Virus record (IMG/VR): IMGVR_UViG_3300028829_004880
Coordinates: 1 to 58,277 of that record
Origin: a virus
Taxonomy: Duplodnaviria > Caudoviricetes
DNA length: 58,277 nucleotides
Direction: 5' to 3' (one strand)
A program made the translations under genes and the position numbers. Below, piece by piece: positions 7,994-51,744 of this stretch. Within the stretch, counting starts at the first letter, position 1, and every line of letters starts with the position of its first letter. Below the pieces are notes generated by a model. That model worked only from the letters and a program-made list of their open reading frames with translations, made no database searches and had not been told where the DNA came from.

Positions 7994-8119
7994 TGGGCGG
8001 AGTAGTGTTCGAACCTACATCTTCCGTTATGGATTTACGCTACCATAACACGGGGTTACCATGCTGGACTGAATCCAGACAACCTTCGCACGGACGCTCT
8101 ACCATTAAGCTATCCACCC
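7994..8119 (-). ncRNA. tRNA-like RNA with ~54-nt structured insert replacing the anticodon loop
   Basis: acceptor GGGTGGA/TCCGCCC, D arm GCTT..GAGC, stem TCCGT/ACGGA, TTCGAAC T loop. Confidence 0.65.
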
Positions 8120-8606
8120 ATTTATTGGCTTACTAAAACAGTAGCTTGCACGGGGTCAAAACATTGGGCTCTTCGCTTACGTATTCCTCACATCATTTCT
8201 GACGGGTCTCCGCTCCGTGCCTTTTCCCAACTTAGGACCTTTTTACGCTTGCCTTTTCGTCCAACACGTCAATTTATTTTTTTTCGGGTCCATACAGCGT
8301 CATAACGGTGATGCATTCACCTAACTGCTTCCCCTAGTCTTAAATTAACAAATTAGACTACGGTTCTTTAATGTCAATTACTGTTTTCTAAGGGGTGGTA
8401 CTAATAGATTTTTGTTTTGTACACTCTAGGGATATACACCCTAGTTCTCACCCGAAGAATAGACTTAACACGTTCTTAGAATTGTGTTAGTGAATTAGTG
8501 CTACTTGGGGTTGACTCACCTAATGTAGATTTATTTAACGCTCTATCTCGTCTACAACCAGCTTTAGAGTACACTTTCACTTTGTCCATCTTCAACAGTA
8601 ATTTAG

Positions 8607-8697
8607 TGGTGATGGTTGGATTTGCACCAACTTCTGCTCACCGCCCGTATATGGTTAGTATCTTAATCGTAGCCCGCCATATAGGGTTAACATCACC
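8607..8697 (-). ncRNA. tRNA-like RNA (acceptor + T arm, no D or anticodon arm)
   Basis: GGTGATG/CATCACC-A; GTTGG-TGCAAAT-CCAAC; internal TATATGG/CCATATA helix. Confidence 0.5.
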
Positions 8698-8783
8698 ATT
8701 TGGTAGAATTAACCTCTTCTACCATGAGCTTACCTCGCACCCCGAAGGGTGACTCTAAAACAAGTGACCATACTCGCTCTATG

Positions 8784-8854
8784 TGTTATCGACGGGATTC
8801 GAACCCGCATCTCTGCCAGTAATGGAGCGACTTAACCAGTTTGCCCACAATAAC
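8784..8854 (-). ncRNA. pseudo-tRNA with shortened anticodon arm
   Basis: normal acceptor, D and T arms; anticodon region 2-3 nt short (CCA-TTAC-TGG). Confidence 0.55.
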
Positions 8855-9073
8855 TAGGATGTCGTCAGACCACCTAGTTAGTTGTATTGTCCAGCTGGGG
8901 CTCATTGCCCTCCACTCGACTGCTTCGGGACGAACCAAAGCGTTTATACTACCTTTCGGTCAATCTCATCCCTACGTATCTACAATGTATCCATCGTACC
9001 AACTCGTCAATTTGCTTAGGATTAAATAGTACCAGAGACTACCCTAAGACTCGCCATTTCTGGTATAATTGTG

Positions 9074-9146
9074 TTGAGAGGGCTAGACTTGAACTAGCGA
9101 CACGTGACTTTTCAAGCCAATGCTCTACCAACTGAGCTACCTCTCA
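9074..9146 (-). tRNA. tRNA-Phe(GAA)
   Basis: cloverleaf, loop TTGAAAA. Confidence 0.85.
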
Positions 9147-9150
9147 ATTT

Positions 9151-9512
9151 AAACGCAATTAGGTTGCTGTTTAACATTCATCATCACAACACGGCTAGAA
9201 TATTAAAAACCTAAAATTACACCATATCCCGAACCCGTAAATGACTGTTCTATGTATTGATTTTGCGGTTAGTGCGGCACTTGTACGGAAGAACTTAATC
9301 TCACCACCAGTGGGCGGTCTTAACAACACTACTCCGAATGCACAGGTGTTTTCATCCTGTTACAAACTAATACATGAATGACTCAGTCAACAACCAACCG
9401 TACTTCCCCCACGGGGTTACCTAGCATTGGTCCTTGGACGTTCTCACCCTCGGTAATATATCACATCGAACTATAATCCTCTCCCAGCTAAGAGAGGTAG
9501 TTACTTGCGTTT
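9151..9512 (-). ncRNA. candidate ~360-nt structured RNA
   Basis: ORF-free, GC-richer, ends pair (AAACGCAA/TTGCGTTT), internal hairpins; strand inferred from context. Confidence 0.35.
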
Positions 9513-9543
9513 ATTTCTGTTACATTTGAGTAACATAACATAG

Positions 9544-9609
9544 TGGGGCAAAGAGGAATCAAACCTCAACTTTAAAGACCTAAATCTTTAAAGGTAAACA
9601 TACTGCCCC
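9544..9609 (-). ncRNA. D-armless tRNA-like RNA
   Basis: GGGGCAG/TTGCCCC-A, 9-bp hairpin, GAGG-TTTGATT-CCTC. Confidence 0.5.
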
Positions 9610-9779
9610 ATGTGTGTTATTTGGGAGTGGGCACCCAAAATAATAACTCATTCACTGATACTTCTCAGCCCTAAGATAGCCCTTGTCGATTTCTCAACAT
9701 TTTTAGCACTACATTTTGACCGTCAACTATAACGGGTGAATCGATATCACGCCAGTCCATCGACTAACACATATTATCC

Positions 9780-10295
9780 TTACTTGCTCGATGTTATGAG
9801 CAATCTATATCTACTTCGTTTAGTAGAACCTTTAGTTGAATTACTTTCGGATGCGAAGCCTAGTCTATTCTCTAGAACTTGAGCTAATGTTCCTACTTCA
9901 CCCTCATACTTAAAACAAAGGGTTGCGTAATTAACGTAGTCATCTTCACCAGCCACATCAAACTCATCAAATATTCCGAGTCCAAGTTGTTGAGTCCCTT
10001 CGTGATAATAATTTACTATCAATAGGTCACAATCGTTAAGTTTATTACTTTGGAATGCCTCAATTTGTTCAAATAACCCTTTCCCAACATCAAGATATTC
10101 ATCGTCATCATTATCTAAGTCATCACTTAACTCTGGGACAACGATTAACATTTCACACCCTAAGAGGGGTTTATGTGAGTAACCACCACCTTTGTATTCA
10201 ACTATATCAACATCAAATCCTTTTAGTAAGGTTCGAACCGCAGACACAACGTCTGGGTTCGCCCTATTAGATTTGGCTAAATAAATTGAAGTCAT
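9780..10295 (-). CDS. hypothetical protein
   Basis: ORF track; coupled to 10297-10629. Confidence 0.6.
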   Translation of the reverse strand: MTSIYLAKSNRANPDVVSAVRTLLKGFDVDIVEYKGGGYSHKPLLGCEMLIVVPELSDDLDNDDDEYLDVGKGLFEQIEAFQSNKLNDCDLLIVNYYHEGTQQLGLGIFDEFDVAGEDDYVNYATLCFKYEGEVGTLAQVLENRLGFASESNSTKGSTKRSRYRLLITSSK

Positions 10296-10296
10296 A

Positions 10297-10629
10297 TTAG
10301 AACCACTCTTTCAAGATGTCTTGAGCTACTTTCAACTCAATTTTCTTAAGCTCTAATTCAAGTGTAGCTTCATGCATATCATTAACCCAACCTTTGGCGT
10401 TAAAGTCTCCACCACCTGGACGAAGGCTATAAGATGTATCTGGTGCAAGGTCAGATAAATCTAGAATCTTAGATTCCAACTCATCAACTTCACCATCTAA
10501 CTTACGCTCAAGGTCCTCAGCCGCACGTTTAACAGACTTAGCTAGTTTCTCTGCTCTAGCTCCTTTGATTTCTTCGGTAGATGCTGCGATTTGCGCTGCA
10601 AATTTACCTTTGCTTTCTTTTGTACTCAT
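10297..10629 (-). CDS. hypothetical coiled-coil protein
   Basis: ORF after promoter motif at 10675-10682. Confidence 0.6.
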   Translation of the reverse strand: MSTKESKGKFAAQIAASTEEIKGARAEKLAKSVKRAAEDLERKLDGEVDELESKILDLSDLAPDTSYSLRPGGGDFNAKGWVNDMHEATLELELKKIELKVAQDILKEWF

Positions 10630-11158
10630 AACTTTAATTTAGTTAAATTTAATTATTACTAATTGTTTCGACTACAAAGATACGTAACTTATTCCAACCC
10701 CACAAGTTTTTTTGTAAATATTTTCAAATTATTTTTAATAAAACTTATAATTGATTATAAATCAAGACTTTAGAAATAATAAATATTAATCAAGATTAAC
10801 GATTATCCTATCTATTGTATTAATTGTTCTATCTAGAGATAGAACTATTTGGTTTTGATTTTTGATAACTCCCACAATACCTTCATTTAGTTTATCTAAT
10901 CTACCACCAACACAATCAACCTTATTAATAATAGCGTTATATAATTCTTCGTTAGTCATCTATTTAATTATCCAAATTTTTTAATTCTACTCTCAACTCT
11001 TGTATCTTACGTTGGTGAGATGGTACGTTTATCTCAGCTGTTGCTGATGACTTCTTTGTAAGTGACATTCTTAATTCATCTTGAAGATAGTCGATTCTTT
11101 CTTGTAACTTCTTCTTTTTCTTTTCTACTTTTCCCATTGTTTCTATGTTTTAGTATTG

Positions 11159-11232
11159 TGGAGGTGACGGGACTCAAACCCGTGGTCTCTTGAGTGCAAG
11201 TCAAGTGCTTTAGTCATCTAAGCTACACCCCC
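11159..11232 (-). tRNA. tRNA-Ala(TGC)
   Basis: cloverleaf, G3:U70, loop CTTGCAC. Confidence 0.9.
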
Positions 11233-11414
11233 ATTATTTATTACCGTTAGTTACCAGAGGATTACATACTGAAATGTTAATTCATTGATAATTAATGATT
11301 TATGTTTTTGGTAACTTACCAGAGGTTACCGTTGGATAATATATTGTCTGTTTGCTATCATAGTAGCACTTTTAGCTAATATATTATCTGTTTTGCTACT
11401 AGAGTAACGTTTTG

Positions 11415-11490
11415 TGGAGACAATGGGAATTGAACCCATCACATAGACATTGCAAATGTCCATCGCCAAAGCCTTGGAACATGTGCCCCC
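11415..11490 (-). tRNA. tRNA-Ala(TGC), atypical D arm
   Basis: G3:U70, loop TTTGCAA. Confidence 0.75.
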
Positions 11491-11568
11491 GAACGCAAGT
11501 GTTTTCTTATCCCATTAAACTAACCGCCCCAGAAGGGACAGTACGGGGCTCGAACCCGTATCTCTTAC
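11491..11568 (-). ncRNA. circularly permuted tRNA-like RNA
   Basis: order: 3' anticodon strand, T arm, acceptor stem closed by TTCT loop, D arm, 5' anticodon strand. Confidence 0.75.
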
Positions 11569-11646
11569 TGGCGGTCTAGGAGGGAGTCAAACCCTCGTTT
11601 TTGAGCAGAGACAGTGCAAATCCACCTTCAAGGGGCTCACTAGACC
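11569..11646 (-). tRNA. tRNA-Asp(GTC), degenerate D and anticodon stems, encoded CCA
   Basis: GGTCTAG/CTAGACC-G-CCA, loop CTGTCTC. Confidence 0.6.
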
Positions 11647-11763
11647 AATTTTGTTAGATTTCGTATCGTTATCACACTTCAATACAAGTCACTTTCAATT
11701 TATCTAACTTACTTCCTATGCTGCCTCTCTGGGCTACTCCCAGCGGCTTTGTGCAACACCGAG

Positions 11764-11835
11764 CGGACGGTGGGGGACTCGAACCCCGACCTCTTGCGTG
11801 ACAGGCAAGTATGCAGCCATTACACCACACCGTCC
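11764..11835 (-). tRNA. tRNA-Asp(GTC), 8/4 fold
   Basis: 8-bp acceptor GGACGGTG/CACCGTCC, 4-bp T stem, loop CTGTCAC. Confidence 0.85.
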
Positions 11836-11881
11836 ATTTAGCAGTATTTTATTTCGTTCAGAACCGCTAGAAACTGACCCT

Positions 11882-11966
11882 TGGTACTGCGTGTGGGAAT
11901 CGAACCCACTCTCCTATAATTGGCTGGGGTGAAAGCCCAGTCGCTCACCCAATTGCATTACGCAGC
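11882..11966 (-). tRNA. tRNA-Glu(TTC) with long variable region
   Basis: CTGGG-CTTTCAC-CCCAG, 14-nt variable region, encoded CCA. Confidence 0.75.
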
Positions 11967-11972
11967 ATTTTG

Positions 11973-12045
11973 TGGTACTAGAGGGACTTGAACCCCCGAC
12001 ACGTGGATTTTCAGTCCACTGCTCTACCAACTGAGCTATAGTACC
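11973..12045 (-). tRNA. tRNA-Phe(GAA)
   Basis: canonical cloverleaf. Confidence 0.92.
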
Positions 12046-12051
12046 ATTTCG

Positions 12052-12124
12052 TCACCCGTAGGGGAGTCGAACCCCTCACTCTGCCGTGAAAGGGCAGCGT
12101 CTTAAACCGATTGACCAACGGGCG
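12052..12124 (-). tRNA. tRNA-Glu(TTC)
   Basis: canonical cloverleaf. Confidence 0.9.
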
Positions 12125-12132
12125 AAATGAAT

Positions 12133-12148
12133 CAAGATGTCAAAGAAC
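12133..12148 (-). promoter_or_regulatory. boxA-like antitermination element GTTCTTTGACATCTTG
   Basis: identical 16-mer at 45121-45136; resembles rrn boxA. Confidence 0.6.
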
Positions 12149-12159
12149 ATGTGTTCTTG

Positions 12160-12232
12160 TGAGGGCAAACGGTATCGAACCGATATCTCTGGGGTTTCAA
12201 TCCAGCGCATAGCCCATCTTTGCTATACCCCC
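12160..12232 (-). tRNA. tRNA-Phe(GAA), divergent
   Basis: cloverleaf with mismatches, loop TTGAAAC. Confidence 0.75.
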
Positions 12233-12246
12233 AAATTAACGAGCAT

Positions 12247-12276
12247 AAAAAAAGCCCGACCTTTATGGTCGAGCTT
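12247..12276 (-). terminator. attenuator terminator of tRNA array 1
   Basis: GCTCGACC-ATAAA-GGTCGGGC + T7. Confidence 0.85.
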
Positions 12277-12301
12277 ATCAATTTTCGTTATATATTTTAC
12301 A

Positions 12302-12391
12302 TTAACTTTTTGACAATATTCGACCACCCTTGGAACAATCTTCCTCGGCTGCAAAAAATGCAAAATCAAATATGTTAGTTACTGTTATCAT
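12302..12391 (-). CDS. leader peptide MITVTNIFDFAFFAAEEDCSKGGRILSKS
   Basis: hand-translated 29-aa ORF between promoter and terminator; run of F/D/A/E codons. Confidence 0.8.
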   Translation of the reverse strand: MITVTNIFDFAFFAAEEDCSKGGRILSKS

Positions 12392-12442
12392 TATTTCTAT
12401 TTTTTTGTGGAACTTCGTGTTCCTTGTTTATTAAATACAATG

Positions 12443-12450
12443 CAAATATA
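12443..12450 (-). promoter_or_regulatory. Bacteroidota-type -7 promoter element TATATTTG (array 1)
   Basis: TAnnTTTG consensus; same motif recurs at e.g. 5974, 7927, 10675, 19419, 45641, 50488, 52448, 53773. Confidence 0.75.
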
Positions 12451-12545
12451 CGAAAGTTATTTGAATTGACAAGTATTTTTTGTAATTATTTTTAAGTTAT
12501 TTTTACTTTCCCAGTGTTTACTGGGGTTTCAGAGCTAAAATATTT

Positions 12546-13196
12546 TTATCTTTTTACTGCCCCTAAGAACTCTCTAGTCTTTTTAAGACCAATAATTTGA
12601 ATTATCTTTCTTAAGAAACTCATCTTATCACCCAATTCACTTTTAGCATAATAGTTGATTAATTCAACCACTTCCTTTTCTTTATCTCTACTAAGTGATG
12701 TCTTGTAATCCATAACATCTCTAAGACTCATAAAGTAATACCCGTTGATAAATGTAGCCGCACCCATTACCTCTTGTGTTGACCTTACTTTGACATCAGC
12801 ATATGCACCACCAGCTTTAGATGGGTCCCAAACGTCAAATGCTTCAATTGAACCGTCTTGTGTTGGTCTGTAGATACCACCTTGATTATATTCGTTTTCT
12901 AATCCAGCGTTAACCCAAAGTTGTTTGTCTGGAATAACAATATCTAAGTCACCAATACTACCAGTAAGGTTAAATGCTTCTCTAAGGGGTGGGTGAAGAT
13001 ATAGTCTAGCTGAACCAGCTATGAAATAAACTCTATCCTTTGGGTCTATATTAAATTTCTTGAAGATTAACTCATTAGATTTACCAATCAAGTCAGTTAG
13101 ACCACTATCACCTTCATTGATTTCTAAGTCTTCTTCTAAGGTTGACCAAAACTCAGTCAACATAATTTCTTTAATATATATCTCAGATAATCGCAT
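12546..13196 (-). CDS. nucleotidyltransferase-fold protein
   Basis: IAGSARL...GDLDIVI motif. Confidence 0.55.
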   Translation of the reverse strand: MRLSEIYIKEIMLTEFWSTLEEDLEINEGDSGLTDLIGKSNELIFKKFNIDPKDRVYFIAGSARLYLHPPLREAFNLTGSIGDLDIVIPDKQLWVNAGLENEYNQGGIYRPTQDGSIEAFDVWDPSKAGGAYADVKVRSTQEVMGAATFINGYYFMSLRDVMDYKTSLSRDKEKEVVELINYYAKSELGDKMSFLRKIIQIIGLKKTREFLGAVKR

Positions 13197-14671
13197 ATTT
13201 TTTAATTCTTTCTATCACAGTCTTATCATACTGCTTCTCTATTGTCATCTTCTTAATCGAGAAAAACATTCTCAATGGACTAGGTCCCTTTAAATAAAAG
13301 AAATGATAAGCTGACCAAAAATTTCTTTTATGATAATCATCCTTTATAATCTCTGTAAGGTGACTCACGTTGGCATCAACAAAGTTCCAATCATATTCAT
13401 GACATAACTTACTAACCTTTTTAATAAATAGATAGCATTCCACTATTCTAGTTACAATCAACGCAATAATTAAAGTCAAAACTATCATAATCTTTCTTAT
13501 TTAATGTTTATATAGTATAAATATACAAAAAAGAAATCAATTAACCTAATTTTTTCTTAAATATTTATATCCTAGGGTAAATATTATACCATATAATACT
13601 CTAGCACCTAAGACACCCCAAAGTCCAACTGAATATACAGATAAACCAATACCACTGAATATACACGCTGTGCTAATCATCTTAAATAGGTGCCAAGCCT
13701 CAGTTACACCAACAAGAAGTGTTGATGATAGGAAGAATTTCTCCCCATTATCTCTGTTACCACCCTTCCACTTATTCGCACCAGATAGGAATGGATTCCA
13801 GAACTGTGGGTTTAACTTGCTGAATACACTATCCTCAAAGTGATGTGCAAGTGTATCCTTACCAGATTCAGCTAATCCAGCAATGATTATTAATAGTATA
13901 CCAATCGTTAATATCATTTATTTCTCTTGAATATATTACGAAATGACTTGTCAGTAGCTTTCATGTATTCATAAAAGATAATAGCTATAAGCGCACCATG
14001 TGATGCCACTAGGTGTCCAACCAATGGATACCAATTATCATAAACATCACCTCTACCAATGAATACCCAAAATACAATTGAAGTTACAAGCCCAAATATT
14101 AATACATATATTGATGATGCATTATCAAATAATTTTCTCCCTTTGTTTTCAAATCTTTCCATTTTTTTCTTTTTTTAACTTGTTTTTTTTATTGTAGTTA
14201 TTAAACCACTTCTCCATTGACTTACGCTTGCATTCGTTACAATGATAGTCAATTGGATAAGGTACCTTCTTTAAGCATATATTACATTCTTGTTCCATTC
14301 TTGTCCAGATTTATTGCCATAAGCATCACAATGTCTTTTTGTGGCGCAAGAGGCTAATAACGTTAGGGTAATCACAATAATTATTAATCTTTTCATATCT
14401 TAGTTCTTAGGGTGAAATTGTTTTGGTACAATTCCACCAACTTTTATTAGGTTTAATATTGTATGTTCTTTAGCTGAAAGTAATACCATATCATTAGATG
14501 GGTCTCTAGCTATCCAACCATTGATGAATTGTTTCGCAAGGTTATTATGAACATTTTTCAATAGACCTTTAAGGTATGCTTTCGCCACCGTTTGAGCGGA
14601 AGGTCCTAGACCTTCCCTAAGTTGTTGTCTAATGAATTGTTTCATACTAATAAATACTTGTTAGTCATAGG

Positions 14672-15514
14672 TTATTTATTTAAATAAGGTTCCATATAGT
14701 TAGGTAACCAACCAGATTTATCATATTGCCTTCTAACATAAACCCTTTTTTGTTCATCAGTTAAATCATCAAATGCCCATTCCCCCCAAACATACCCCTC
14801 TTCAAATTGAACTTGTAACCAAGCTTTTTTATTTGGACCTAAGTGTGGGTAATAGGTGTCTGGAAAATTAATGTATCTAAAACCACCCTCTATATTATAT
14901 TTTATTATATAGTCAAATATTTTATCAAGAGATTTAATTCTTAGGTCGGTAGGTAAGACTTCAAACCAACTAGGATATTCATCACGATTTTTACCATGTC
15001 CTTGTTGGAGTGATGCGGTTCCTATACTCCTTTTCATATGTCTTTTTACTTGTGAATCAAGATACATATCCTTAACCTTATCACCACCATATTGTAGGAT
15101 TTTATTAGATAATGGATTACCAGCCTCAAGTCTAGTTTTTATAAATCCCTTTTTAATTTCATCTGGTAGGATATCAAACATACTATCATTAATTTGGTTA
15201 CCCTTCTTTGCTCTTGTTGTAGCTAGTTTAATTCTTAATTCAGTATTTAACCTATTAAATTCATAGTCTTTAATGTGAAAACTACGCTCCATTCTATTGT
15301 TTAAATATATAGCTAAAGCATGCTCATCTAACATGGCTAATTCATAATCAACTAATTTATGTGGGCTGCCATCACTGATATTACCATTTTTACTAGCTAT
15401 TAACCTTTTTCTAAAGTATGTTTTCTTAGCCCAGTTTGGTAATTGGTTGTATTGGTATTCTGGAATTGTAAGTCCAGTATCTACGTATTGTGATATGAGG
15501 TCCTTATTGTTCAT
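14672..15514 (-). CDS. repeat-containing hypothetical protein, paralog of 15525-16190
   Basis: shared N-terminus MNNKDLIxQYVDTGLxIPEYQY. Confidence 0.65.
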   Translation of the reverse strand: MNNKDLISQYVDTGLTIPEYQYNQLPNWAKKTYFRKRLIASKNGNISDGSPHKLVDYELAMLDEHALAIYLNNRMERSFHIKDYEFNRLNTELRIKLATTRAKKGNQINDSMFDILPDEIKKGFIKTRLEAGNPLSNKILQYGGDKVKDMYLDSQVKRHMKRSIGTASLQQGHGKNRDEYPSWFEVLPTDLRIKSLDKIFDYIIKYNIEGGFRYINFPDTYYPHLGPNKKAWLQVQFEEGYVWGEWAFDDLTDEQKRVYVRRQYDKSGWLPNYMEPYLNK

Positions 15515-15524
15515 TTTACTAAGT

Positions 15525-16190
15525 TTATTTATTCACGTTTTTATGTTGTTTAACTATATCTAAGATATGTAATGCATCTTCACTATCAAGACCACCTAAA
15601 GAGTGGAGTAAATTGATTCCTTTACCTAATTTAGCAATTCGTTCAGCAATTTGGGATTTATTTATACCATAATAAATTAAACCCACAATATCATGTTTAT
15701 TTAATTTATCACCTTTAACATCAATAATCTTATTAGCCGTTTGGTCCTTATCTGATGAATATCTCATAATATCACTAAATATATTATTCCCATGTTCTTT
15801 AGTGCCCCTTATTTTAAGTATAAGTTCAATTATCTGTTCCGTATTTGAATAGGACTCTACCATCTTCCCTATACCATACTCACCTAAATTGTATATATAA
15901 TCATGTTTTAATTTATCACCAGTTAAAAGGTCAAACTCAAACGATTGAAGGTTAACCCCATAGTCAATTCTATTTTTTAGATATTTAGGTAAAACATCCT
16001 TATCTAATAACATTAATTCATACCTGTCAAGGTTACGTCCACTATCATCACTAATACTACCCATTTTAGTGGCAATAAGTCTCTTACGTATATAAGTCTT
16101 TTTACCCCAGTTAGGGAGTTTGGTGTATTGGTATTCTGGAATTCTAAGTCCAGTATCTACGTATTGCGCTATGAGGTCCTTATTGTTCAT
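15525..16190 (-). CDS. hypothetical protein, paralog of 14672-15514
   Basis: shared N-terminal ~55 aa. Confidence 0.65.
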   Translation of the reverse strand: MNNKDLIAQYVDTGLRIPEYQYTKLPNWGKKTYIRKRLIATKMGSISDDSGRNLDRYELMLLDKDVLPKYLKNRIDYGVNLQSFEFDLLTGDKLKHDYIYNLGEYGIGKMVESYSNTEQIIELILKIRGTKEHGNNIFSDIMRYSSDKDQTANKIIDVKGDKLNKHDIVGLIYYGINKSQIAERIAKLGKGINLLHSLGGLDSEDALHILDIVKQHKNVNK

Positions 16191-17164
16191 TAATTAGAAC
16201 CAATTAAATAATCAAATTGTTCATTACTTAATAGATGTCCTCTTCCAATATAAGCCGACTTATATTCAATTGGTAATTTCATAAACCAATCTAAATCAGT
16301 ATTAAGTGTACCTAACAAGTTATCTTCCTCTTCTTCTTGTGGTGTCTTTGGATTATTAACCATTTTCTCTACTGGTACACCCTTAGACTTCAAGTACTCA
16401 ACATAACTCTGAGTGTCACCACCAAATTTAGCAATAGTTCCAGTAGTGTTATTTGCATCAGTCAATTCAATACCATGTTTAGTATTGTCAAATACAACAA
16501 TGTGTAATGGGTCATCTAAATTAGCGGAACCATCTTCATTTGTTTTAAAGTGATTTTTATCTACAATGAAATAGAATGAAGAATCCTGTGAGTCACGATA
16601 AGATTTATACATAGTATTACCTGGTTGTCCGATACAAAAACCATAACCTTGACCAGTTAATCCACCTTGTGTATATGCAATACACTTACCAACCCCATTT
16701 CCATCATAAATATCGATTCCATTACCACTCCAAAGTGTTTTTTTGTCAGAATTGAAGTCAGCATCAACACTAGACCCACCCTTAGGTTTTTCAGTATATT
16801 TATTGGTTTCACCGTGAATATATTCACCAAACGCTATAAAGCTTGCTATTGGTTTATCACCCATGGTCATACCACCCTTTCTAGAATAGTTTAGTGGTTT
16901 AACTCTTTGTTTTTTAATTAACTCTTCATACTCATTAAAAACACTACTTAAATTATTTATATTTTTTTCACCACCAACATAGAATACAGCCATAAATGGT
17001 AGATTCTTTTGGTTCTTTGAATTATCGATTGATTTTAATTGGTTGAGTACTTCTTCCTTATTATCAAGTGCTTTTAATACCCCTAAACTTTGTTGCTCAC
17101 TAGCCTTTGATTCGCTTATGCGAATAAGATTTTCTCTAAGTAATGTTCTAATGAATGATTTCAT
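16190..17164 (-). CDS. hypothetical protein with MKxFIxxLLRE leader
   Basis: ORF; upstream TATTTAT motif. Confidence 0.65.
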   Translation of the reverse strand: MKSFIRTLLRENLIRISESKASEQQSLGVLKALDNKEEVLNQLKSIDNSKNQKNLPFMAVFYVGGEKNINNLSSVFNEYEELIKKQRVKPLNYSRKGGMTMGDKPIASFIAFGEYIHGETNKYTEKPKGGSSVDADFNSDKKTLWSGNGIDIYDGNGVGKCIAYTQGGLTGQGYGFCIGQPGNTMYKSYRDSQDSSFYFIVDKNHFKTNEDGSANLDDPLHIVVFDNTKHGIELTDANNTTGTIAKFGGDTQSYVEYLKSKGVPVEKMVNNPKTPQEEEEDNLLGTLNTDLDWFMKLPIEYKSAYIGRGHLLSNEQFDYLIGSN

Positions 17165-17194
17165 ACTAATAAATACTACTTAATATGATAAAAG

Positions 17195-17281
17195 TAGGGA
17201 TAATGGGAGTCGAACCCATACGCTAATATTTCAAGCAGTAGCGTTTGAAACTACCATGTCTACCAATTCCAACATACCCCC
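17195..17281 (-). tRNA. tRNA-Leu(CAA)
   Basis: class II cloverleaf, loop TTCAAAC. Confidence 0.85.
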
Positions 17282-17287
17282 ATGTTG

Positions 17288-17371
17288 TACCTAAGGTGGG
17301 ACTCGAACCCACACGCCCTTACGGGCACCAGCTTCTTAGGCTGGCGTGTCTACCAATTCCACCACTTAGGT
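17288..17371 (-). tRNA. tRNA-Leu(AAG)
   Basis: class II cloverleaf, CCAGC-CTAAGAA-GCTGG. Confidence 0.85.
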
Positions 17372-17380
17372 ATATTGTTG

Positions 17381-17469
17381 TACGGGTGGTGGGAATCGAA
17401 CCCACAGGTGTATCTTACGTGTGCCACGGGGTCTAAGCCCGCCAGCTTTACCAATTTGCTCACACCCGC
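17381..17469 (-). tRNA. tRNA-Leu(TAG), atypical variable region
   Basis: GCGGG-CTTAGAC-CCCGT. Confidence 0.8.
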
Positions 17470-17481
17470 ATGTGTGATTTG

Positions 17482-17569
17482 TAGGGATGATGGGAATCGA
17501 ACCCATAATGTCTCTTACGTGTGCCATAGGGTTTAAGCCTACCAACTTTACCAATTTGTTCACACCCCC
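17482..17569 (-). tRNA. tRNA-Leu(TAA), atypical variable region
   Basis: GTAGG-CTTAAAC-CCTAT. Confidence 0.8.
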
Positions 17570-17676
17570 AAGTAACGGTAGCTTATACTCTCAGTACATA
17601 GTGATAGACCACTATAACGTACTTACCCTTTAAGCATGAGCCAGTCTATTCCAACACCCGTTTAGTTGGTGGCTTG

Positions 17677-17756
17677 TAGCGGACCTAGGAGTCGAACCTA
17701 GTATCTCGTGGGTTATGAGCCCAGAATGATTTATATATCCGTTTCACTCGTCCGCA
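17677..17756 (-). tRNA. tRNA-Met(CAT), initiator-like
   Basis: T1:T72 mismatch, GGG/CCC in anticodon stem, enlarged D loop. Confidence 0.75.
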
Positions 17757-17758
17757 AG

Positions 17759-17829
17759 TACCCCCACGTGGAATCGAACCACGGCTTTCTCCATGTAAAA
17801 GAGATGTTCTCCCATTAAACTATGGGGGC
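17759..17829 (-). tRNA. tRNA-Val(TAC)
   Basis: cloverleaf, loop TTTACAT. Confidence 0.85.
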
Positions 17830-17932
17830 ATAAAACAAACATAATACCTCTTCGGTCACAAGTGTCCATTGGTCCAGATTCTTACTGGTGTCCTTGAATG
17901 ATGGGATTTAAACCCAACTTACATTTGTTTAG

Positions 17933-18003
17933 TAACCCTAGACGGATTCGAACCATCGCTTCTTGCATGTAACACAAGGGTGCTCCCGTTACACCATAGG
18001 GTT
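17933..18003 (-). tRNA. tRNA-Val(TAC)
   Basis: cloverleaf, loop GTTACAT; 5' end overlaps HNH stop codon. Confidence 0.8.
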
Positions 18004-18526
18004 ATTTAGAACTTTCAATTTTTGCGTGTCTTATTCTATGACAATTAGAACACAATAACACACATTTGTCTAGTTCATCTTTTATTTTACCCCACTTCTG
18101 GTATTGTATCTTATTCCAGTTTGGGTCCTTTTCATTTGGGTCTAAGTGATGAAAATCAAATACACATTGATAGGTGTTTTCAATATTCAAATCACAATCC
18201 AAACATTGGTCTCCCTTATAATGAACCATTTTAAGTTTAACCCTTTTTATTCTTTTCCCATGATACACATTACTACAGTTTTTACAATAACCACCGTAAC
18301 TATCTCTATTAGACCTTTTATAGAATTCATCTATTGGTTTAATAGTTTCACATCTAGGGCAGAACTTGTCATCACCATACTGTTTATTATGTTGGTTGTG
18401 CTTGGTTTTTAAACCAAACTTCTTTAACCAATACTTTATACTAGTCTGAGAACAATCAAGTTCTTCTGCAATCTGTCTTTGAGACATTCCTGTCTCAATT
18501 AGTGGTTCTAATATTTCTCTTTCCAT
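18002..18526 (-). CDS. HTH + zinc-finger HNH endonuclease
   Basis: N-terminal HTH, CxxC pairs, DFHHLDP...CVLLCSNCHRIRH. Confidence 0.85.
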   Translation of the reverse strand: MEREILEPLIETGMSQRQIAEELDCSQTSIKYWLKKFGLKTKHNQHNKQYGDDKFCPRCETIKPIDEFYKRSNRDSYGGYCKNCSNVYHGKRIKRVKLKMVHYKGDQCLDCDLNIENTYQCVFDFHHLDPNEKDPNWNKIQYQKWGKIKDELDKCVLLCSNCHRIRHAKIESSK

Positions 18527-18555
18527 AACAGTGTTTTATAATAAATATAACTCAC

Positions 18556-18594
18556 TTTCGAAAAAGACACTCTGAACCACTGAGTTACAGATGC
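18556..18594 (-). pseudogene. orphan tRNA 5' half
   Basis: GCATCTG-TA-ACTC-AGTGGTTCA-GAGT with no T arm or 3' acceptor strand; HNH gene follows. Confidence 0.6.
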
Positions 18595-18599
18595 ATTTG

Positions 18600-18687
18600 T
18601 TGCAGTAGTAGGATTCGAACCTACAGTGAGGTTTCAAACCTCGTCCCCCTCCACGGGGGATGTGTATGCCAATTCCACCATACTGCT
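18600..18687 (-). tRNA. Leu-type body with TGG at anticodon position (undetermined)
   Basis: Leu-like D arm, long variable arm, A73; loop CGTGGAG; A1:A72 mismatch. Confidence 0.55.
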
Positions 18688-18716
18688 AAGGTTCTTTGCG
18701 CTTTAGAACCCCTTTG

Positions 18717-18802
18717 TAGCCGAGGTGGGATTCGAACCCACACGGGCATTACTGCCCACTGGATTTTAAGTCCAGCGTGTCTACCAATTCCACCACTCAG
18801 CC
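18717..18802 (-). tRNA. tRNA-Leu(TAA)
   Basis: canonical class II cloverleaf. Confidence 0.92.
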
Positions 18803-18997
18803 ATTTAGGGTGTTTCAACCCTAAAACTTGGTAATTAATTTGTGTGGTGTTTTAACCACTTTTTCAAATTTTTAACTCTTCTTATTTTCTTTATACGAAA
18901 GGCTCTATTAACCTTTTCATGTATGTGTTCTATTTCCTTTTTGGTTAATAAATCACTTTCTTTAGTATCCATTTTCATTTTTAACTCTTATTAGTTG

Positions 18998-19072
18998 AGT
19001 CGGGAGAGGGAATCGAACCCCCATCTATCTGATTTTGCAGACCAGTGCCTAAAGCCATTCGACCATCCCGAC
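18998..19072 (-). tRNA. tRNA-Cys(GCA)
   Basis: loop CTGCAAA, U73. Confidence 0.9.
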
Positions 19073-19229
19073 ATATTTTAATGTTTCACTTCTATTCTCT
19101 TTCCACACTTGACACATTTCTTAATCTCTATATTCTTGGTCCAGAAAAAAACTGTTCTCTCGAATTTATGACTACAAATTGTCGTTCTTATTTTATCTTT
19201 TATTATTTTCATTTCTAATTATTGTGCAT

Positions 19230-19261
19230 AAAAAAATCCGATACTGAATTTCAATATCGGA
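19230..19261 (-). terminator. attenuator terminator of tRNA array 2
   Basis: TCCGATATTGA-AAT-TCAGTATCGGA + T7. Confidence 0.85.
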
Positions 19262-19288
19262 CCTTAACTTGTTGTTATATCTTCAAAT

Positions 19289-19366
19289 TTAACAACACAG
19301 TCCGACACTTACTACTAATAAGACTAGTAGTGAAGAAAGACATAATATGTTGTTAACTGTTTGCAC
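19289..19366 (-). CDS. leader peptide MQTVNNILCLSSLLVLLVVSVGLCC (GTG start)
   Basis: hand-translated 25-aa ORF between promoter (19419-19426) and terminator; L/V/C rich. Confidence 0.75.
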   Translation of the reverse strand: MQTVNNILCLSSLLVLLVVSVGLCC

Positions 19367-19472
19367 TTTTTAAGTTTTTAAGTCGGCACACGAGGCACCT
19401 TGTTTATTAAATACATTGCAAATATACGAAAAACTTTTTAATAAGCAAGTATTTTTTAAATTTATTTTTAAA

Positions 19473-19844
19473 TTATTTTATAATATCCCTAATTTGAAGA
19501 ACAGCTAGATACGCTTCATCCCTTTGTTTATAAAGCTTTATGAGATATTTATCAAACATTAATTTATCTTCAAAAACTTCATCAAATTTAGGTCTTAATT
19601 TCCTTAATTCTTCTGTTGAGTTGACAAGAATCTCTAAATGTTGCAATACCTTCTCAGTATTATACACCTTGTTATAGAAATCTACAACACCACTAACTTC
19701 ATCTAATTCATTTAATAGTTTTTTCTCTTCATCTCTCAACGCAGCAGCCTTTTCGTACTGTTGGTCCATGATGGTTTTGTTCTTTCTTTCTGGCATATCA
19801 TTGAGCTTGTCAATAAGTACCATAATCTCATTTTTTTTCTCCAT
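19473..19844 (-). CDS. UVR (UvrB/C) coiled-coil motif protein
   Basis: QQYEKAAALRDEEK, like the ClpC/McsA UVR motif. Confidence 0.65.
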   Translation of the reverse strand: MEKKNEIMVLIDKLNDMPERKNKTIMDQQYEKAAALRDEEKKLLNELDEVSGVVDFYNKVYNTEKVLQHLEILVNSTEELRKLRPKFDEVFEDKLMFDKYLIKLYKQRDEAYLAVLQIRDIIK

Positions 19845-19908
19845 TTCCTTATTTTTCTTATTTTTCTTAAGTATAACGATTTTAAGATATTAGTAAATAT
19901 TTATAGGT

Positions 19909-20691
19909 ATGAAGTTATTACGATTATATGAAAACATCATAAGGGAAGGTCAAGCTAAGAGTTGTGTTGCTAAATTCGGGGTAGAATTATTTGGTGACCA
20001 ATTAAATGGTAAAGAGGCTAACACTAGTACAGAAGAATTATACTTAAAGTATATTGAAAGATTCACTGAGGATAACTTCGGTGTTGGGCTTACTGCGAAT
20101 TTCGCTAAGTCAATTCAACACCTTAAATCTTGTATGTCATCATACCCAGAAGTATTAGTTCCTTCTAACACAACTGTTTACAGAGGTGAGGTAATACCTG
20201 TTTCGTGGTTTCTAAAGAATAAGGTTCAGTTCTCTAATACACCAGTTGGTTTTACATATGAAACACCAGCACCTATACAAAGTTGGACTGAGGACCGAAA
20301 AACAGCAGCTGGCTTTACCTTTGAAGCAACTGGTGATGGTTATTGGGAAGAAATGGGTAATGAATTTTTAGAATACATGGGTAGAGGTACTGATGGTGAG
20401 GATAAGTTTTTCACTGAGGTATTCTTAAAGAAATATTCAAATCTTAAGGTTCCAATTGTATTAGAACATTATGCAGATGAAAGTGAGTTTATATTCAAGG
20501 CTAAATACTTCGATGCATTGAGTAGCAACCCTGGTGAAATGGAGGTACTTAGATTAGGGAACGAACCATTATCCACAGACTTAACCGTATCATTTGATTC
20601 ATTGCCAAGATACGCTGGAAAAGCATTATTAATGATTAACCAAATAATTGAATTTGGTTTAGAAAGTGGAGAAGATTATGAGATTAGATAA
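19909..20691 (+). CDS. putative mono-ADP-ribosyltransferase (R-S-E type)
   Basis: VYRG, QSWT and EMEVL motifs in the expected order. Confidence 0.6.
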   Translation: MKLLRLYENIIREGQAKSCVAKFGVELFGDQLNGKEANTSTEELYLKYIERFTEDNFGVGLTANFAKSIQHLKSCMSSYPEVLVPSNTTVYRGEVIPVSWFLKNKVQFSNTPVGFTYETPAPIQSWTEDRKTAAGFTFEATGDGYWEEMGNEFLEYMGRGTDGEDKFFTEVFLKKYSNLKVPIVLEHYADESEFIFKAKYFDALSSNPGEMEVLRLGNEPLSTDLTVSFDSLPRYAGKALLMINQIIEFGLESGEDYEIR

Positions 20692-21991: not shown

Positions 21992-22301
21992 CGGTAAGGT
22001 ATATCTTGTAGGAAACTTGGATGAAAATCTATATAAGATTGGTTGGACTAGAGGCGACATTAATAATCGTGTCCTTCAACTCCAAACAGGAAATCCTAAG
22101 AAAATTGAAGCTGTTAATGAATTTGAATCCAAGCATTATGTTAAACTTGAAACATACATGCATAATAGACATGGTAGTAAAAGACAAGAAGGTGAATGGT
22201 TTGAATTAACACAAGAAGATGTCATGAACTTTACCAACGATTGTCAGAGAGGTCATGACACCATTCAAATGCTTGTAGAATCTGGAAATCCATTTATTTA
22301 G
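21984..22301 (+). CDS. GIY-YIG family protein (T5orf172/MUG113-like)
   Basis: VYLV..YKIGWT..R..LQTGNP..E..MH..GEWF. Confidence 0.8.
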   Translation: MNNGKVYLVGNLDENLYKIGWTRGDINNRVLQLQTGNPKKIEAVNEFESKHYVKLETYMHNRHGSKRQEGEWFELTQEDVMNFTNDCQRGHDTIQMLVESGNPFI

Positions 22302-34618: not shown

Positions 34619-35737
34619 TTATAATACTTTATATAACTTTTTGTTATCGTACTTTCTAAGGTACTCCTTTACTGACTCTACCTTACCATCTTTCATTCCG
34701 AAGAATAATCCACTGTAAGCCTTAAGGTCATCCTTGCCAATCAATTCAAATACCGCCATGGCGAATTTCTTTTGTTCTTTTGGTGTGATGTTCTTTGGTT
34801 TCTTGTCTTGCAACTTATCCCAAGCATCCTCAAGTGTATCAATTAATTTATTGTAACCTTCATAAAGCTTGAATATCTCTTCCTTTCTTTCTGGGAAAGT
34901 AGCGGAGAATTCCTCAATTTCATTAGATTTAACAACGTCCATTATAGCATGTTCTGATGTCTTAGACTTCAAGTGGTGAACCGCAACATATGCTGGGTTC
35001 TTTATCTTCACTCTATTGAAGTCACCATCAACAACAACGTAACCTTCTTCATGAAATGGCATTCCGTCGAAAGTCTTTTCAATATGACCTACGTTGGTTG
35101 CGTTAAGGTCAAATGACTTAACAAGTGGAATTCCAATTGACTCAGAAACCATCTTCATATCCTCGTAAGTTACCTCTTTAAGTGTCTTTCTATTTCTCAT
35201 TGCTAAGAACGTAGCAGAAGACTCCCCATGTGGCTTCACAACGATATTGTATGGAGTAGTTAACTCGAATACGTAAATGTGGTCCTTATCTAATAAACAG
35301 TCATTGAATCCGTACTTTTCAGCAACAGTATTCCAAAACAAATCATTAAATGTTGTACCATACTTGTTATTCACTTCCCCTTCACCTTCGGCTGTACCAG
35401 TAGTAGCAGCGAACCACTTCTCCTTGTTCCAATCGAAATATACTTGTATCATTGTACCATCACACTTTTCAAGTATACGTGCTGTGTTCCAATCTATCTT
35501 TGCAGCATGACCCTCAGCTGAGTTGAAGAACTTTCTAAATGAAAGACATAATATATTCCATGTATCCTTTTCAAGTATAAGTCCTCTACAATCTTGTACC
35601 TCAGAAAACCCCATAGACGATGCTATTTGGTCATACTTGATAAGAACCTTCTTATCGTAGTCCCTAGTCTTCAACTTAAACTCAGCTACTGCCTTATCAA
35701 GTCCATTTTCTTTTATGTATTTGATTATACTTAACAT
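34619..35737 (-). CDS. RNA ligase, T4 Rnl1-like
   Basis: CRGLIL, KFFN, EKCDGT, FELT, EGYVV, RVKIK. Confidence 0.85.
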   Translation of the reverse strand: MLSIIKYIKENGLDKAVAEFKLKTRDYDKKVLIKYDQIASSMGFSEVQDCRGLILEKDTWNILCLSFRKFFNSAEGHAAKIDWNTARILEKCDGTMIQVYFDWNKEKWFAATTGTAEGEGEVNNKYGTTFNDLFWNTVAEKYGFNDCLLDKDHIYVFELTTPYNIVVKPHGESSATFLAMRNRKTLKEVTYEDMKMVSESIGIPLVKSFDLNATNVGHIEKTFDGMPFHEEGYVVVDGDFNRVKIKNPAYVAVHHLKSKTSEHAIMDVVKSNEIEEFSATFPERKEEIFKLYEGYNKLIDTLEDAWDKLQDKKPKNITPKEQKKFAMAVFELIGKDDLKAYSGLFFGMKDGKVESVKEYLRKYDNKKLYKVL

Positions 35738-51739: not shown

Positions 51740-51744
51740 ATTTG

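What the first reader, a model, noticed from the sequence alone, without database searches (positions are those of the whole stretch)
12247..12450. Attenuator 1: FDFAFFAAEED leader before the Phe/Glu/Asp/Ala array
Eleven consecutive codons are all F, D, A or E; the downstream array (11159-12232) has two each of Phe, Glu, Asp and Ala tRNAs and no other amino acid. Leader segment GTGGTCGA-ATA-TTGTCAA can pair with TTGATAA-GC-TCGACCAT, which includes the terminator's 5' arm, so the two folds are mutually exclusive; the pairing reaches to within two codons of the stop.
Basis: seen in the sequence. Interest (0 to 1): 0.9.

Follow-up and report, generated by a model that had tools for sequence, protein, structure and literature searches.

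The report
Leader-peptide attenuator gating phage tRNA genes
A giant phage puts a tiny test gene, spelled only in Phe, Asp, Ala and Glu codons and wired to a switchable stop signal, in front of its Phe, Glu, Asp and Ala tRNA genes, so it probably makes these tRNAs only when ribosomes run short of them.

Summary
On the minus strand a promoter (12472-12444), a 29-codon ORF (12391-12302) and the region's best intrinsic terminator (12276-12252 plus a T run) sit 14 nt before a tRNA array: Phe, Glu, Phe, Glu, Asp, Ala, Ala.

- **Codon match:** codons 8-18 are all F, D, A or E. In the six-frame translation of the whole window the next longest such run is 6.
- **Switch:** the ORF's 3' end can pair either with the Phe-Asp-Phe codons or with the terminator's 5' arm.
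- **Recurrence:** the design recurs at two more arrays in this window and in three related phage records, 14 units in all. In each of the four records the true leader-to-array assignment is the single best permutation.
- **Specific pairing:** each leader end fits its own terminator arm (mean -16.3 against -9.1 kcal/mol).
- **Orthologues:** 11 of 22 metagenome loci keep the F/D/E/A core while the terminator sequence is replaced.

Best reading: a trp-type ribosome-mediated attenuator that feeds back on tRNA supply. No experiment exists. RNA-library contigs bridging the terminator are only a weak hint.

Ten literature searches found no published account. This scan has reported the same design before on other DNA.

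The parts
12444..12472 (-). Promoter: TTG box (12472-12470) and TAnnTTTG-type -7 box (12451-12444)
   Evidence: Promoter-like site. The 11-nt motif around the -7 box occurs 15 times with at most 1 mismatch, all on the minus strand, against 1.97 expected. It is shared by the two other leader units. The name 'Bacteroidota-type consensus' is recalled, not tested.
12409..12423 (-). 5' stem-loop (5 bp, loop of 5) between the likely transcript start and the leader ORF
   Evidence: The unit at 45.6 kb has a hairpin at the same place with a changed but still pairing stem. Its function is unknown.
12302..12391 (-). Leader ORF: 29 codons plus stop (stop codon 12304-12302)
   Evidence: It is the best-scoring ORF against the array's amino-acid set among 4 ORFs in the 330 nt upstream. 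Orthologues occur in 11 of 22 metagenome loci.
12338..12370 (-). Regulatory core: codons 8-18, all Phe, Asp, Ala or Glu
12362..12375 (-). Segment 1: Ile-Phe-Asp-Phe codon region that pairs with segment 2
   Evidence: Present in the MFE fold and in the folds. RNAalifold finds a consensus helix over 11 orthologues, mostly invariant pairs with little covariation.
12310..12327 (-). Segment 2: 3' end of the leader ORF, which pairs with segment 1 or with segment 3
   Evidence: The nucleotides are kept across a compensated frameshift relative to orthologue L028.
12265..12281 (-). Segment 3: spacer plus terminator 5' arm, which pairs with segment 2 (antiterminator) or segment 4
12247..12276 (-). Intrinsic terminator: stem 12276-12267 / 12261-12252, loop 12266-12262, T run 12253-12247
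   Evidence: -15.8 kcal/mol. In a variant contig of run X4 the differences fall in the loop, the spacer and the third base of the stop codon, not in the stems.
11158..12232 (-). Regulated tRNA array: Phe(GAA), Glu(TTC), Phe(GAA), Glu(TTC), Asp(GTC), a sub-threshold tRNA-like, Ala(TGC), Ala(TGC)
   Evidence: There is no minus-strand promoter-like site or copy of the promoter motif inside the array.

Best explanation
This is a ribosome-mediated (trp/his/phe-type) transcription attenuator whose regulated genes are the phage's own tRNA genes.

Transcription starts at the promoter at 12472-12444 and must pass the terminator at 12276-12247 to reach the Phe/Glu/Asp/Ala array. A ribosome translates the 29-codon leader while RNA polymerase moves on.

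- **Fast decoding.** If Phe, Asp, Ala and Glu codons are decoded quickly, the ribosome reaches the end of the ORF. There it covers segment 2 (12327-12310), the terminator hairpin forms, and transcription stops.
- **Slow decoding.** If any of these codons is decoded slowly, the ribosome stalls in codons 8-18 and occupies segment 1. Segment 2 then pairs with the terminator's 5' arm as it emerges, the terminator cannot form, and the tRNA genes are transcribed.

New tRNAs speed up leader decoding and shut the gate again, which is negative feedback on tRNA supply.

Shown by sequence analysis: the parts, their geometry, the codon-to-tRNA match and the alternative pairings. Inferred: translation of the leader, the kinetic order of folding, and the physiological trigger.
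For: 1. Anatomy at this site.

2. Codon match. 11 of 11 core residues are in the array's set, and the next longest such run in the window is 6. 10 of 11 core codons are readable by array anticodons, and 7 of 7 array tRNAs are sampled.

3. Switch at this site. The antiterminator duplex is -15.9 kcal/mol against -15.8 for the terminator stem. On the transcript cut before the 3' arm, the 5' arm is paired at P = 0.79 with no ribosome or a ribosome on the core codons, and at 0.24 with a ribosome on the stop codon.

4. Recurrence. 14 units were found: 3 in the window, 3 in G004, 4 in G001 and 4 in G002. Their leader cores are drawn from the downstream array's amino acids. Examples are 20 of 20 for the 8-amino-acid array at 45.6 kb, 9 of 9 for a Pro/His/Gln array and 32 of 33 for a Cys/Ile/Ser/Phe/Gly/Asn/Thr/Arg array. 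The true leader-array assignment is the only best one among 6, 6, 24 and 24 permutations. Over all units, 105 of 112 array tRNAs have a cognate codon in the leader core.

5. Specific complementarity. Leader ends against terminator arms average -16.25 kcal/mol for own pairs and -9.07 for non-own pairs. The own arm ranks first for 10 of 14 leaders, and 0 of 100,000 random assignments do as well.

6. Conserved geometry. The gap from stop codon to terminator is 23-32 nt.

7. Orthologues. 11 of 22 metagenome loci with the neighbouring protein carry the F/D/E/A leader before Phe/Glu/Asp/Ala arrays. They fall into five different terminator sequences, and own pairing is the best of 120 permutations of class representatives.

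8. Selection on the RNA. A compensated frameshift changes the peptide after the core but keeps the nucleotides.

9. Weak hint of read-through. Two RNA-library contigs bridge leader, terminator and tRNA-Phe: 12164-12380 with 0 differences and 12207-12453 with 1 difference.
Against: - No experiment exists. Translation of the leader and regulated termination are both inferred.
- There is no Shine-Dalgarno sequence before the ATG. This is expected for a Bacteroidota host, but the host is not identified.
- At equilibrium, on the full-length RNA, the terminator dominates wherever the ribosome is placed in most units. For this unit P(terminator) is 0.50-0.99. The switch therefore has to be kinetic.
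- On the truncated transcript the antiterminator also forms with no ribosome at all. The untranslated state cannot be predicted from energies.
- In 7 of 14 units a ribosome modelled on the stop codon barely lowers antiterminator pairing.
- The antiterminator is weak in orthologue class C (-7.8 to -8.7 kcal/mol) and no better than shuffles in G004-a (58 of 300).
- The 1:2 helix shows almost no covariation: only 2 of 20 pairs have double changes, both in inner hairpins.
- Some leaders hold residues with no tRNA in the array: Ser in the 19.3 kb unit and Val in L025-L027.
- Three related loci (L032-L034) have Asp and Ala tRNAs directly after the neighbouring gene with no leader.
- The RNA contigs have depth 2.7 and 4.05, and DNA carry-over is not excluded.
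Confidence: 0.8

Rival explanations
1. The device is the same, but the signal is different. The leader reads amino-acid starvation (uncharged host tRNA) or general translation stress in the infected cell, not the abundance or integrity of tRNAs. The tRNA arrays are then switched on as part of a stress or timing programme.
For: A stalled ribosome cannot tell a missing tRNA from an uncharged one; this is established for classical attenuators (recalled). Leaders that pool up to 8 amino acids would respond to many kinds of translation slowdown. The Anabaena tRNA array is induced by impaired translation in general (PMC8421152, passages seen).
Against: Each leader lists exactly the amino acids of its own array, at codon and anticodon resolution (105 of 112 tRNAs sampled). 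A general stress sensor does not need that. More tRNA does not cure amino-acid starvation, whereas it does cure tRNA loss.
Confidence: 0.12
2. Opposite polarity. A ribosome that follows RNA polymerase closely suppresses the terminator (pyrBI-type coupling). Good decoding then gives read-through and stalling gives termination.
For: Leader ORFs that end shortly before a terminator also occur in coupling-type attenuators (recalled).
Against: The stop codon lies 25 nt before the terminator's 5' arm here and 23-32 nt before it in all units. A terminating ribosome therefore cannot cover the hairpin. The specific leader-to-arm complementarity has no role in this model. Less tRNA leading to less tRNA synthesis would be a runaway loop.
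Confidence: 0.04
3. There is no regulation. The ORF is a chance frame or a small protein gene, and the hairpin is a constitutive, leaky terminator or a processing or stability element at the head of the tRNA precursor.
For: Terminators before tRNA blocks are annotated in other phages without comment (phiCbK record). The 19.3 kb unit's amino-acid set is not unique in the window-wide null (5 ORFs score at least as high).
Against: The window-wide null for this unit is 11 against 6. Four permutation tests each have a single best assignment. Complementarity is to the own terminator only. The core composition is conserved across orthologues while the peptide tail and the terminator sequence change.
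Confidence: 0.03

Closest known systems
Leader-peptide attenuators of Phe genes in enterobacteria (pheL-pheA; pheM-pheST) and the trpL and hisL type in general (textbook knowledge, recalled; the pheL paper PMC3082878 was seen only as one passage)
   Same: A short ORF with a run of cognate codons, then an intrinsic terminator, with a terminator/antiterminator alternative and a helix between the regulatory codons and the antiterminator strand. The logic is the same: a stalled ribosome gives read-through.
   Different: The regulated genes are tRNA genes, not biosynthetic or synthetase genes, so the output acts directly on the sensed quantity. The setting is a phage, there is no Shine-Dalgarno sequence, and four amino acids are read at once. 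Rfam Phe_leader, Trp_leader and Thr_leader match only below threshold: 22.6, 20.6 and 18.9 bits against cut-offs of 55, 41 and 55.
Multivalent leaders ilvL (Ile/Val/Leu) and thrL (Thr/Ile) (recalled)
   Same: One leader integrates several amino acids that all relate to the operon behind it.
   Different: Here the leaders cover 2 to 8 amino acids. The list equals the set of tRNA genes behind the terminator, and it changes from array to array within one genome.
T-box riboswitches (recalled)
   Same: A transcription attenuator that responds to the state of a specific tRNA.
   Different: A T-box binds uncharged tRNA directly and needs no translation. No T-box or any other Rfam family reaches its threshold here. 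The sensor here would be the ribosome.
Inducible long tRNA array (trn operon) of Anabaena sp. PCC 7120, PMC8421152 (listing abstract; passages)
   Same: A supernumerary tRNA array that is silent by default and switched on when translation is impaired. An RNA repair gene (rtcB) is co-regulated there, and RNA repair genes lie beside the arrays here.
   Different: [quoted passage not shown] The words for attenuation, leader and terminator occur 0 times in that text.
Phage tRNAs as escape from tRNA-cleaving host defences, PMC10264068 and PMC11555353 (listing abstracts; PMC10264068 also searched for terms)
   Same: Gives a plausible reason why a phage would need tRNAs on demand.
   Different: These papers concern what phage tRNAs do, not how their genes are controlled. 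'attenuat', 'leader' and 'terminator' occur 0 times in PMC10264068 and 0 times in the 2026 survey PMC13015707.

Membership tests
Ribosome-mediated leader-peptide transcription attenuators | Short ORF between the promoter and the first regulated gene | tested here: met
   29-codon ATG ORF at 12391-12302, downstream of the promoter-like site at 12472-12445.
Ribosome-mediated leader-peptide transcription attenuators | Cluster of codons for the amino acid(s) tied to the regulated genes | tested here: met
   11 of 11 consecutive codons are from {F,D,A,E}. The window-wide next best run is 6. 10 of 11 codons are readable by array anticodons.
Ribosome-mediated leader-peptide transcription attenuators | Intrinsic terminator between the leader ORF and the regulated genes | tested here: met
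   10-bp stem plus a 7-T run at 12276-12247, 14 nt before tRNA-Phe.
Ribosome-mediated leader-peptide transcription attenuators | Antiterminator that uses the terminator's 5' arm and is blocked by a ribosome at the end of the ORF | tested here: met
   Duplex of -15.9 kcal/mol, matched by 7 of 300 shuffles. Pairing falls from 0.79 to 0.24 with a ribosome on the stop codon. Own arms average -16.25 against -9.07 kcal/mol for non-own arms over 14 units. This is computation only.
Ribosome-mediated leader-peptide transcription attenuators | Helix between the regulatory-codon region and the antiterminator strand (1:2) | tested here: inconclusive
   Present in the MFE folds and in the consensus of 11 orthologues. 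The pairs are mostly invariant, and the helix is weaker than the 2:3 pairing.
Ribosome-mediated leader-peptide transcription attenuators | Termination frequency changes with leader translation and with the supply of charged tRNA | not testable with these tools
   Needs an in vitro or in vivo assay. RNA-library contigs across the terminator cannot show regulation.
Ribosome-mediated leader-peptide transcription attenuators | Regulated genes are amino-acid biosynthesis, transport or aminoacyl-tRNA synthetase genes (the scope of described members, as recalled) | tested here: not met
   The genes behind the terminator are 7 tRNA genes.
Rfam Phe_leader (RF01859), Trp_leader (RF00513), Thr_leader (RF00506) | Score at or above the family's gathering threshold | tested here: not met
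   22.6, 20.6 and 18.9 bits against cut-offs of 55, 41 and 55. Nothing but tRNA and tmRNA matches at gathering score in the whole window.
T-box riboswitch | Match to the T-box covariance model (specifier loop and T-box sequence) | tested here: not met
   No T-box match at gathering score, and none among the 14 matches up to E = 10 on 12235-12480.

The most novel reading that the evidence does not exclude
The leaders are codon-resolved gauges of the infected cell's tRNA pool. They make each tRNA array a damage-inducible counter-defence module. When a host anticodon nuclease, or phage-induced tRNA turnover, removes any tRNA of a set, ribosomes stall on that leader and the matching replacement tRNAs are transcribed. 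This would work together with the RNA ligase, kinase and CCA-adding repair genes encoded nearby. A whole clade of giant phages would then run demand-driven, partitioned tRNA supply, with sensors that integrate up to eight amino acids.
Probability: 0.4. Interest if true: 0.95.

Novelty: new variant of a known kind. Interest (0 to 1): 0.88.

Why it matters
Leader-peptide attenuation is a textbook mechanism, but as far as I could find it is described only for genes that make or charge amino acids. Here the same switch appears to control tRNA genes themselves, and the leader acts as a readable list of the tRNAs behind it.

If this is true, three things follow:
- It explains how tRNA-rich phages regulate tRNA supply, an open point in a 50-year-old question about why phages carry tRNAs.
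- It gives a sequence rule, leader composition equals array content, that can be used to annotate transcription units and odd tRNAs in uncultured phages.
- It offers compact, programmable sensors of the decoding speed of chosen codons.

The idea is directly testable with a roughly 250-nt template.

Tried and rejected
1. **E. coli pheV.** I recalled, uncertainly, that E. coli tRNA-Phe genes have an attenuator-like leader. The 100 nt before pheV in K-12 hold no Phe-rich ORF, and no ORF of 20 aa or more rich in Phe is listed. I dropped this. pheU was not looked at.

2. **Equilibrium folding.** I folded the full-length leaders with a masked ribosome footprint. The terminator dominates in most units whatever the mask, so this is not informative about a kinetic switch. 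I replaced it with folding of transcripts cut before the 3' arm.

3. **Wrong frame at 19.3 kb.** My first reading of that unit used an ATG frame, which was wrong.

4. My scripts had wrong coordinates for G001-d, G004-c and G002-a. These were corrected. The first antiterminator table has a wrong row for G002-a, which I do not use.

5. **Cultured relatives.** DNA search of the phage collection found only tRNA-sized matches (5% of the query). The neighbouring protein has no match there.

6. **RNA evidence.** Parts of the stretch without cover in the RNA runs, and runs holding a small share of the words, are not used as evidence of anything.

7. **Alignment covariation.** RNAalifold on 11 orthologues gave only 2 of 20 pairs with double changes. 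The terminators themselves are not alignable between classes, so I used own-against-non-own duplex energies instead.

8. **Literature.** None found a paper describing leader-peptide or other attenuation of tRNA genes. The library lacks most subscription journals, and supplementary files were not opened.

9. **phiCbK.** Two of its four tRNA blocks in 47.2-52.8 kb follow a short ORF partly enriched in the block's amino acids plus an annotated terminator. The match is weaker than here and I ran no statistics. It is a lead, not support.

Full report
**What the window is.** The window is a complete IMG/VR virus record of 58,277 bases. CheckV rates it 16% complete, so it is a fragment of a very large phage. 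It carries 32 tRNA genes and a tmRNA by ARAGORN; Rfam adds two more tRNA matches. Almost all of them lie on the minus strand. An 11-nt motif with a TAnnTTTG-type -7 box occurs 15 times with at most one mismatch, all on the minus strand, against 1.97 expected. I recall this as the Bacteroidota promoter type; the host itself is not identified. Marine metagenome runs hold the stretch, and one of them may be its source. Pfam finds an RNA repair and translation set in the window: RlaP, a T4 Rnl1-like RNA ligase, an AAA_33 kinase and a CCA-adding enzyme.

**The site.** Reading the minus strand from 12472 downward gives these parts in order:
- the promoter;
- a 5-bp stem-loop (12423-12409);
- an A-rich stretch;
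- a 29-codon ATG ORF (12391-12302);
- 25 nt of spacer;
- a 10-bp G+C-rich hairpin followed by seven T (12276-12247);
- 14 nt further on, tRNA-Phe.

The hairpin is the best terminator-like site in 8000-20000. The array to 11158 holds Phe, Glu, Phe, Glu, Asp, Ala, Ala by both ARAGORN and Rfam. It also holds a tRNA-like stretch at 11572-11646 that stays below the Rfam cut-off (25.3 against 29 bits). No other amino acid is represented. No minus-strand promoter-like site or promoter motif lies inside the array, so transcription of the array should have to pass the hairpin.

**Is the codon run more than chance?** Codons 8-18 are all Phe, Asp, Ala or Glu.
- In the six-frame translation of the whole window (108,422 residues) the longest run from this four-letter set is 11, which is this ORF. 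The next is 6.
- Among 2609 ORFs of 12-70 aa it scores 21.9 bits and the next 11.0.
- At the codon level, 10 of 11 core codons can be read by an anticodon of the array under strict wobble rules. The eleventh, GCC, needs extended reading by the U34 Ala tRNA.
- All 7 array tRNAs have a cognate codon in the core.

**The switch.**
- This is the best duplex between the leader and that region: -15.9 kcal/mol, matched by 7 of 300 dinucleotide shuffles. It equals the terminator stem in stability (-15.8).
- The 5' half of segment 2 can instead pair with the Phe-Asp-Phe codons (segment 1, about 12375-12362). This helix appears in the MFE fold of the whole leader, in the fold of the transcript up to segment 2, and in the consensus of 11 orthologues.
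- On a transcript cut before the terminator's 3' arm, the 5' arm is paired with P = 0.79 whether no ribosome is present or one sits on any core codon. With a ribosome on the stop codon this falls to 0.24.
- On the full-length RNA at equilibrium the terminator wins in most settings. As in classical attenuators, the choice would therefore have to be made kinetically during transcription.
- I cannot predict the outcome for an untranslated leader, because 2:3 is more stable than 1:2.

**The design recurs.** A self-search found two paralogous promoter-leader regions at 45564-45678 and 19398-19456. Both are followed by a short ORF, a terminator and a tRNA array.
- The unit at 45.6 kb has 20 of 20 core codons from the eight amino acids of its 13-tRNA array. 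The window-wide longest run for that set is 21 against 11 for the next.
- The unit at 19.3 kb uses a GTG start in the homologous frame. It has 14 of 18 core codons from Cys/Leu/Pro/Val, with three Ser and one Gly unmatched. Its score is not unique in the window-wide null: 5 ORFs reach it.
- A promoter-pattern scan of viral contigs gave 9 loci, of which 3 carry tRNAs after the match.
- The two complete relatives, G001 (325,854 bp) and G002 (327,676 bp), have 49 and 42 tRNA matches. I looked at nine tRNA starts in G001 and G002 and found a leader plus terminator at seven. A lone Arg tRNA in G002 has none. The Gly start in G001 follows an HNH-like ORF and belongs to the unit that begins before the Thr tRNA. 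With the two leaders already seen in L005 and L012, that makes 4 units in each genome. Other scattered tRNAs of these genomes were not examined.
- A closer relative, G004, whose neighbouring protein is 63% identical, adds three units.

**Statistics over the 14 units.**
- For each upstream region I took the best-scoring ORF against each array's amino-acid set, so the choice of ORF is treated alike for own and foreign sets. In each of the four records the true assignment is the single best permutation: 1 of 6, 1 of 6, 1 of 24 and 1 of 24. Units of different records are partly homologous, so these four tests are not fully independent.
- Over all units, 105 of 112 array tRNAs have a cognate codon in their leader core.
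- The distance from stop codon to terminator arm is 23-32 nt throughout.
- Leader ends are complementary to their own terminator arm. The mean is -16.25 kcal/mol for own pairs against -9.07 for non-own pairs. The own arm ranks first for 10 of 14 leaders, and 0 of 100,000 random assignments reach the own total. Within records the own assignment is best in 3 of 4 and tied second in G002 (2 of 24 permutations).
- The ribosome-at-stop model lowers antiterminator pairing clearly in 7 of 14 units. In the other 7, segment 2 lies further upstream of the stop and only a ribosome still translating through it would block it.

**Orthologues of this very unit.** A metagenome scan with the neighbouring protein gave 22 loci, which break down as follows:
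- 11 carry an F/D/E/A-core leader. In 10 of them it is followed by Phe/Glu/Asp/Ala arrays. The eleventh, L029, ends at the contig end and was left out of the energy and alignment work.
- 3 near-identical loci (L032-L034) have Asp and Ala tRNAs directly after the gene with no leader.
- 4 have no tRNA or leader in the 300-2500 nt available.
- 4 are too short to tell.

The order of residues in the core varies, but its composition is kept; one subgroup has one Val. The terminators fall into five unrelated sequences. With one representative per class, own leader-to-arm pairing is the best of 120 permutations. Class C pairs weakly, however (-7.8 to -8.7 kcal/mol).

The window's leader differs from L028 by a one-base deletion and a one-base insertion 24 columns apart. 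This changes the peptide after the core completely, while the nucleotides of segment 2 and the position of the stop stay the same. Selection therefore acts on the RNA and on the length of the frame, not on the peptide tail.

A variant contig in run X4 differs in the terminator loop, in the spacer, and at the third base of the stop codon, where TAA becomes TAG and so remains a stop. It does not differ in the stems or the core.

**Expression.** Two metatranscriptome runs of one study hold contigs that bridge leader, terminator and tRNA-Phe:
- 12164-12380 with no difference, at depth 2.7;
- 12207-12453 with one difference, at depth 4.05.

This fits read-through transcripts. However, contigs cannot show ends or strand, the second contig starts above the predicted transcript start, and DNA carry-over is not excluded. 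I count it as a weak hint only.

**Comparison with what is known.** The anatomy and logic are those of trp/his/phe-type leader-peptide attenuators and of the multivalent ilv and thr leaders (recalled textbook knowledge).
- Rfam's Phe, Trp and Thr leader models match the full element only below threshold, and no family reaches threshold.
- The defining difference is the regulated gene class: tRNA genes.
- T-box elements also sense tRNA but bind it directly, and none matches here.
- The Anabaena inducible tRNA array is a functional analogue controlled at the promoter. Its text never mentions attenuation, leader or terminator.
- Ten full-text searches and term look-ups in two phage-tRNA papers found no description of attenuation of tRNA genes. 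The library misses most subscription journals, and supplements were closed.
- This scan has reported the same design before on other DNA, including a roughly 330-kb phage, marine Bacteroidota phages and phiCbK-like Caulobacter phages. In phiCbK I saw annotated terminators before tRNA blocks, and short ORFs partly enriched in the block's amino acids at 2 of 4 blocks. I ran no statistics on these.

**Verdict.** The most likely mechanism is a classical ribosome-mediated attenuator applied to tRNA genes, giving negative feedback on the supply of the very tRNAs it reads. I give this 0.8. The remainder lies mostly with a different physiological signal for the same device. It is a new variant of a known kind of control, and it is directly testable.

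Noticed in passing
window 22297-23520, 25429-26742, 34622-35737, 37868-38812, 47451-48623 (all minus strand): An RNA repair and translation gene set by Pfam: RlaP, a PARP-like domain, a T4 Rnl1-like RNA ligase, an AAA_33 kinase and a CCA-adding enzyme. This fits a phage that repairs or replaces damaged tRNAs.
   Followed up: partly
window 53368-53738 (-): A phage-encoded tmRNA (67.5 bits against a cut-off of 47) with its own promoter motif at 53771-53781 and no leader ORF.
   Followed up: no
Rfam gives only a chance-level YrlA match there (E = 4.5).
   Followed up: partly
window 7994-8119 (-) and 45167-45237 (-): Two tRNA matches by Rfam that ARAGORN misses. The first is 126 nt long, suggesting an insert or intron. 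The second (43.8 bits) has a His-like anticodon loop by eye and is the first gene behind the 45.6 kb leader.
   Followed up: no
L007 7776 and below (record G003), compared with L005 (G001): A 32-nt deletion inside the leader of the Ala/Glu/Leu/Val/Trp/Asp/Met unit cuts the ORF to 12 codons and leaves the terminator intact. It is either a natural leader mutant or an assembly variant.
   Followed up: no
L013 2145 upstream; L014 5354 upstream; L017 13605 upstream; L016 5588 upstream: A second promoter-like motif (TGTAACC, a spacer, then ACGTAT) stands before some leaders and before a lone Arg tRNA in G001 and G002, in place of the TAnnTTTG type.
   Followed up: no
L015 15218-15288 (G001); L017 977-1048 (G002): tRNAs with anticodon CTA, which would read the amber stop codon. 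ARAGORN labels them Pyl.
   Followed up: no
L020 (reverse complement) about 620-1300: A tRNA-like 5' half is followed by an ORF with HNH-like motifs before the His/Trp/Ser array. It is possibly an intron- or endonuclease-interrupted tRNA gene.
   Followed up: no
L047 (phiCbK, JX100813) 47200-52800: A cultured Caulobacter phage has annotated terminators directly before three tRNA blocks. At two of the four tRNA blocks in the stretch a short ORF precedes the block (one annotated as gp083), partly enriched in that block's amino acids.
   Followed up: partly
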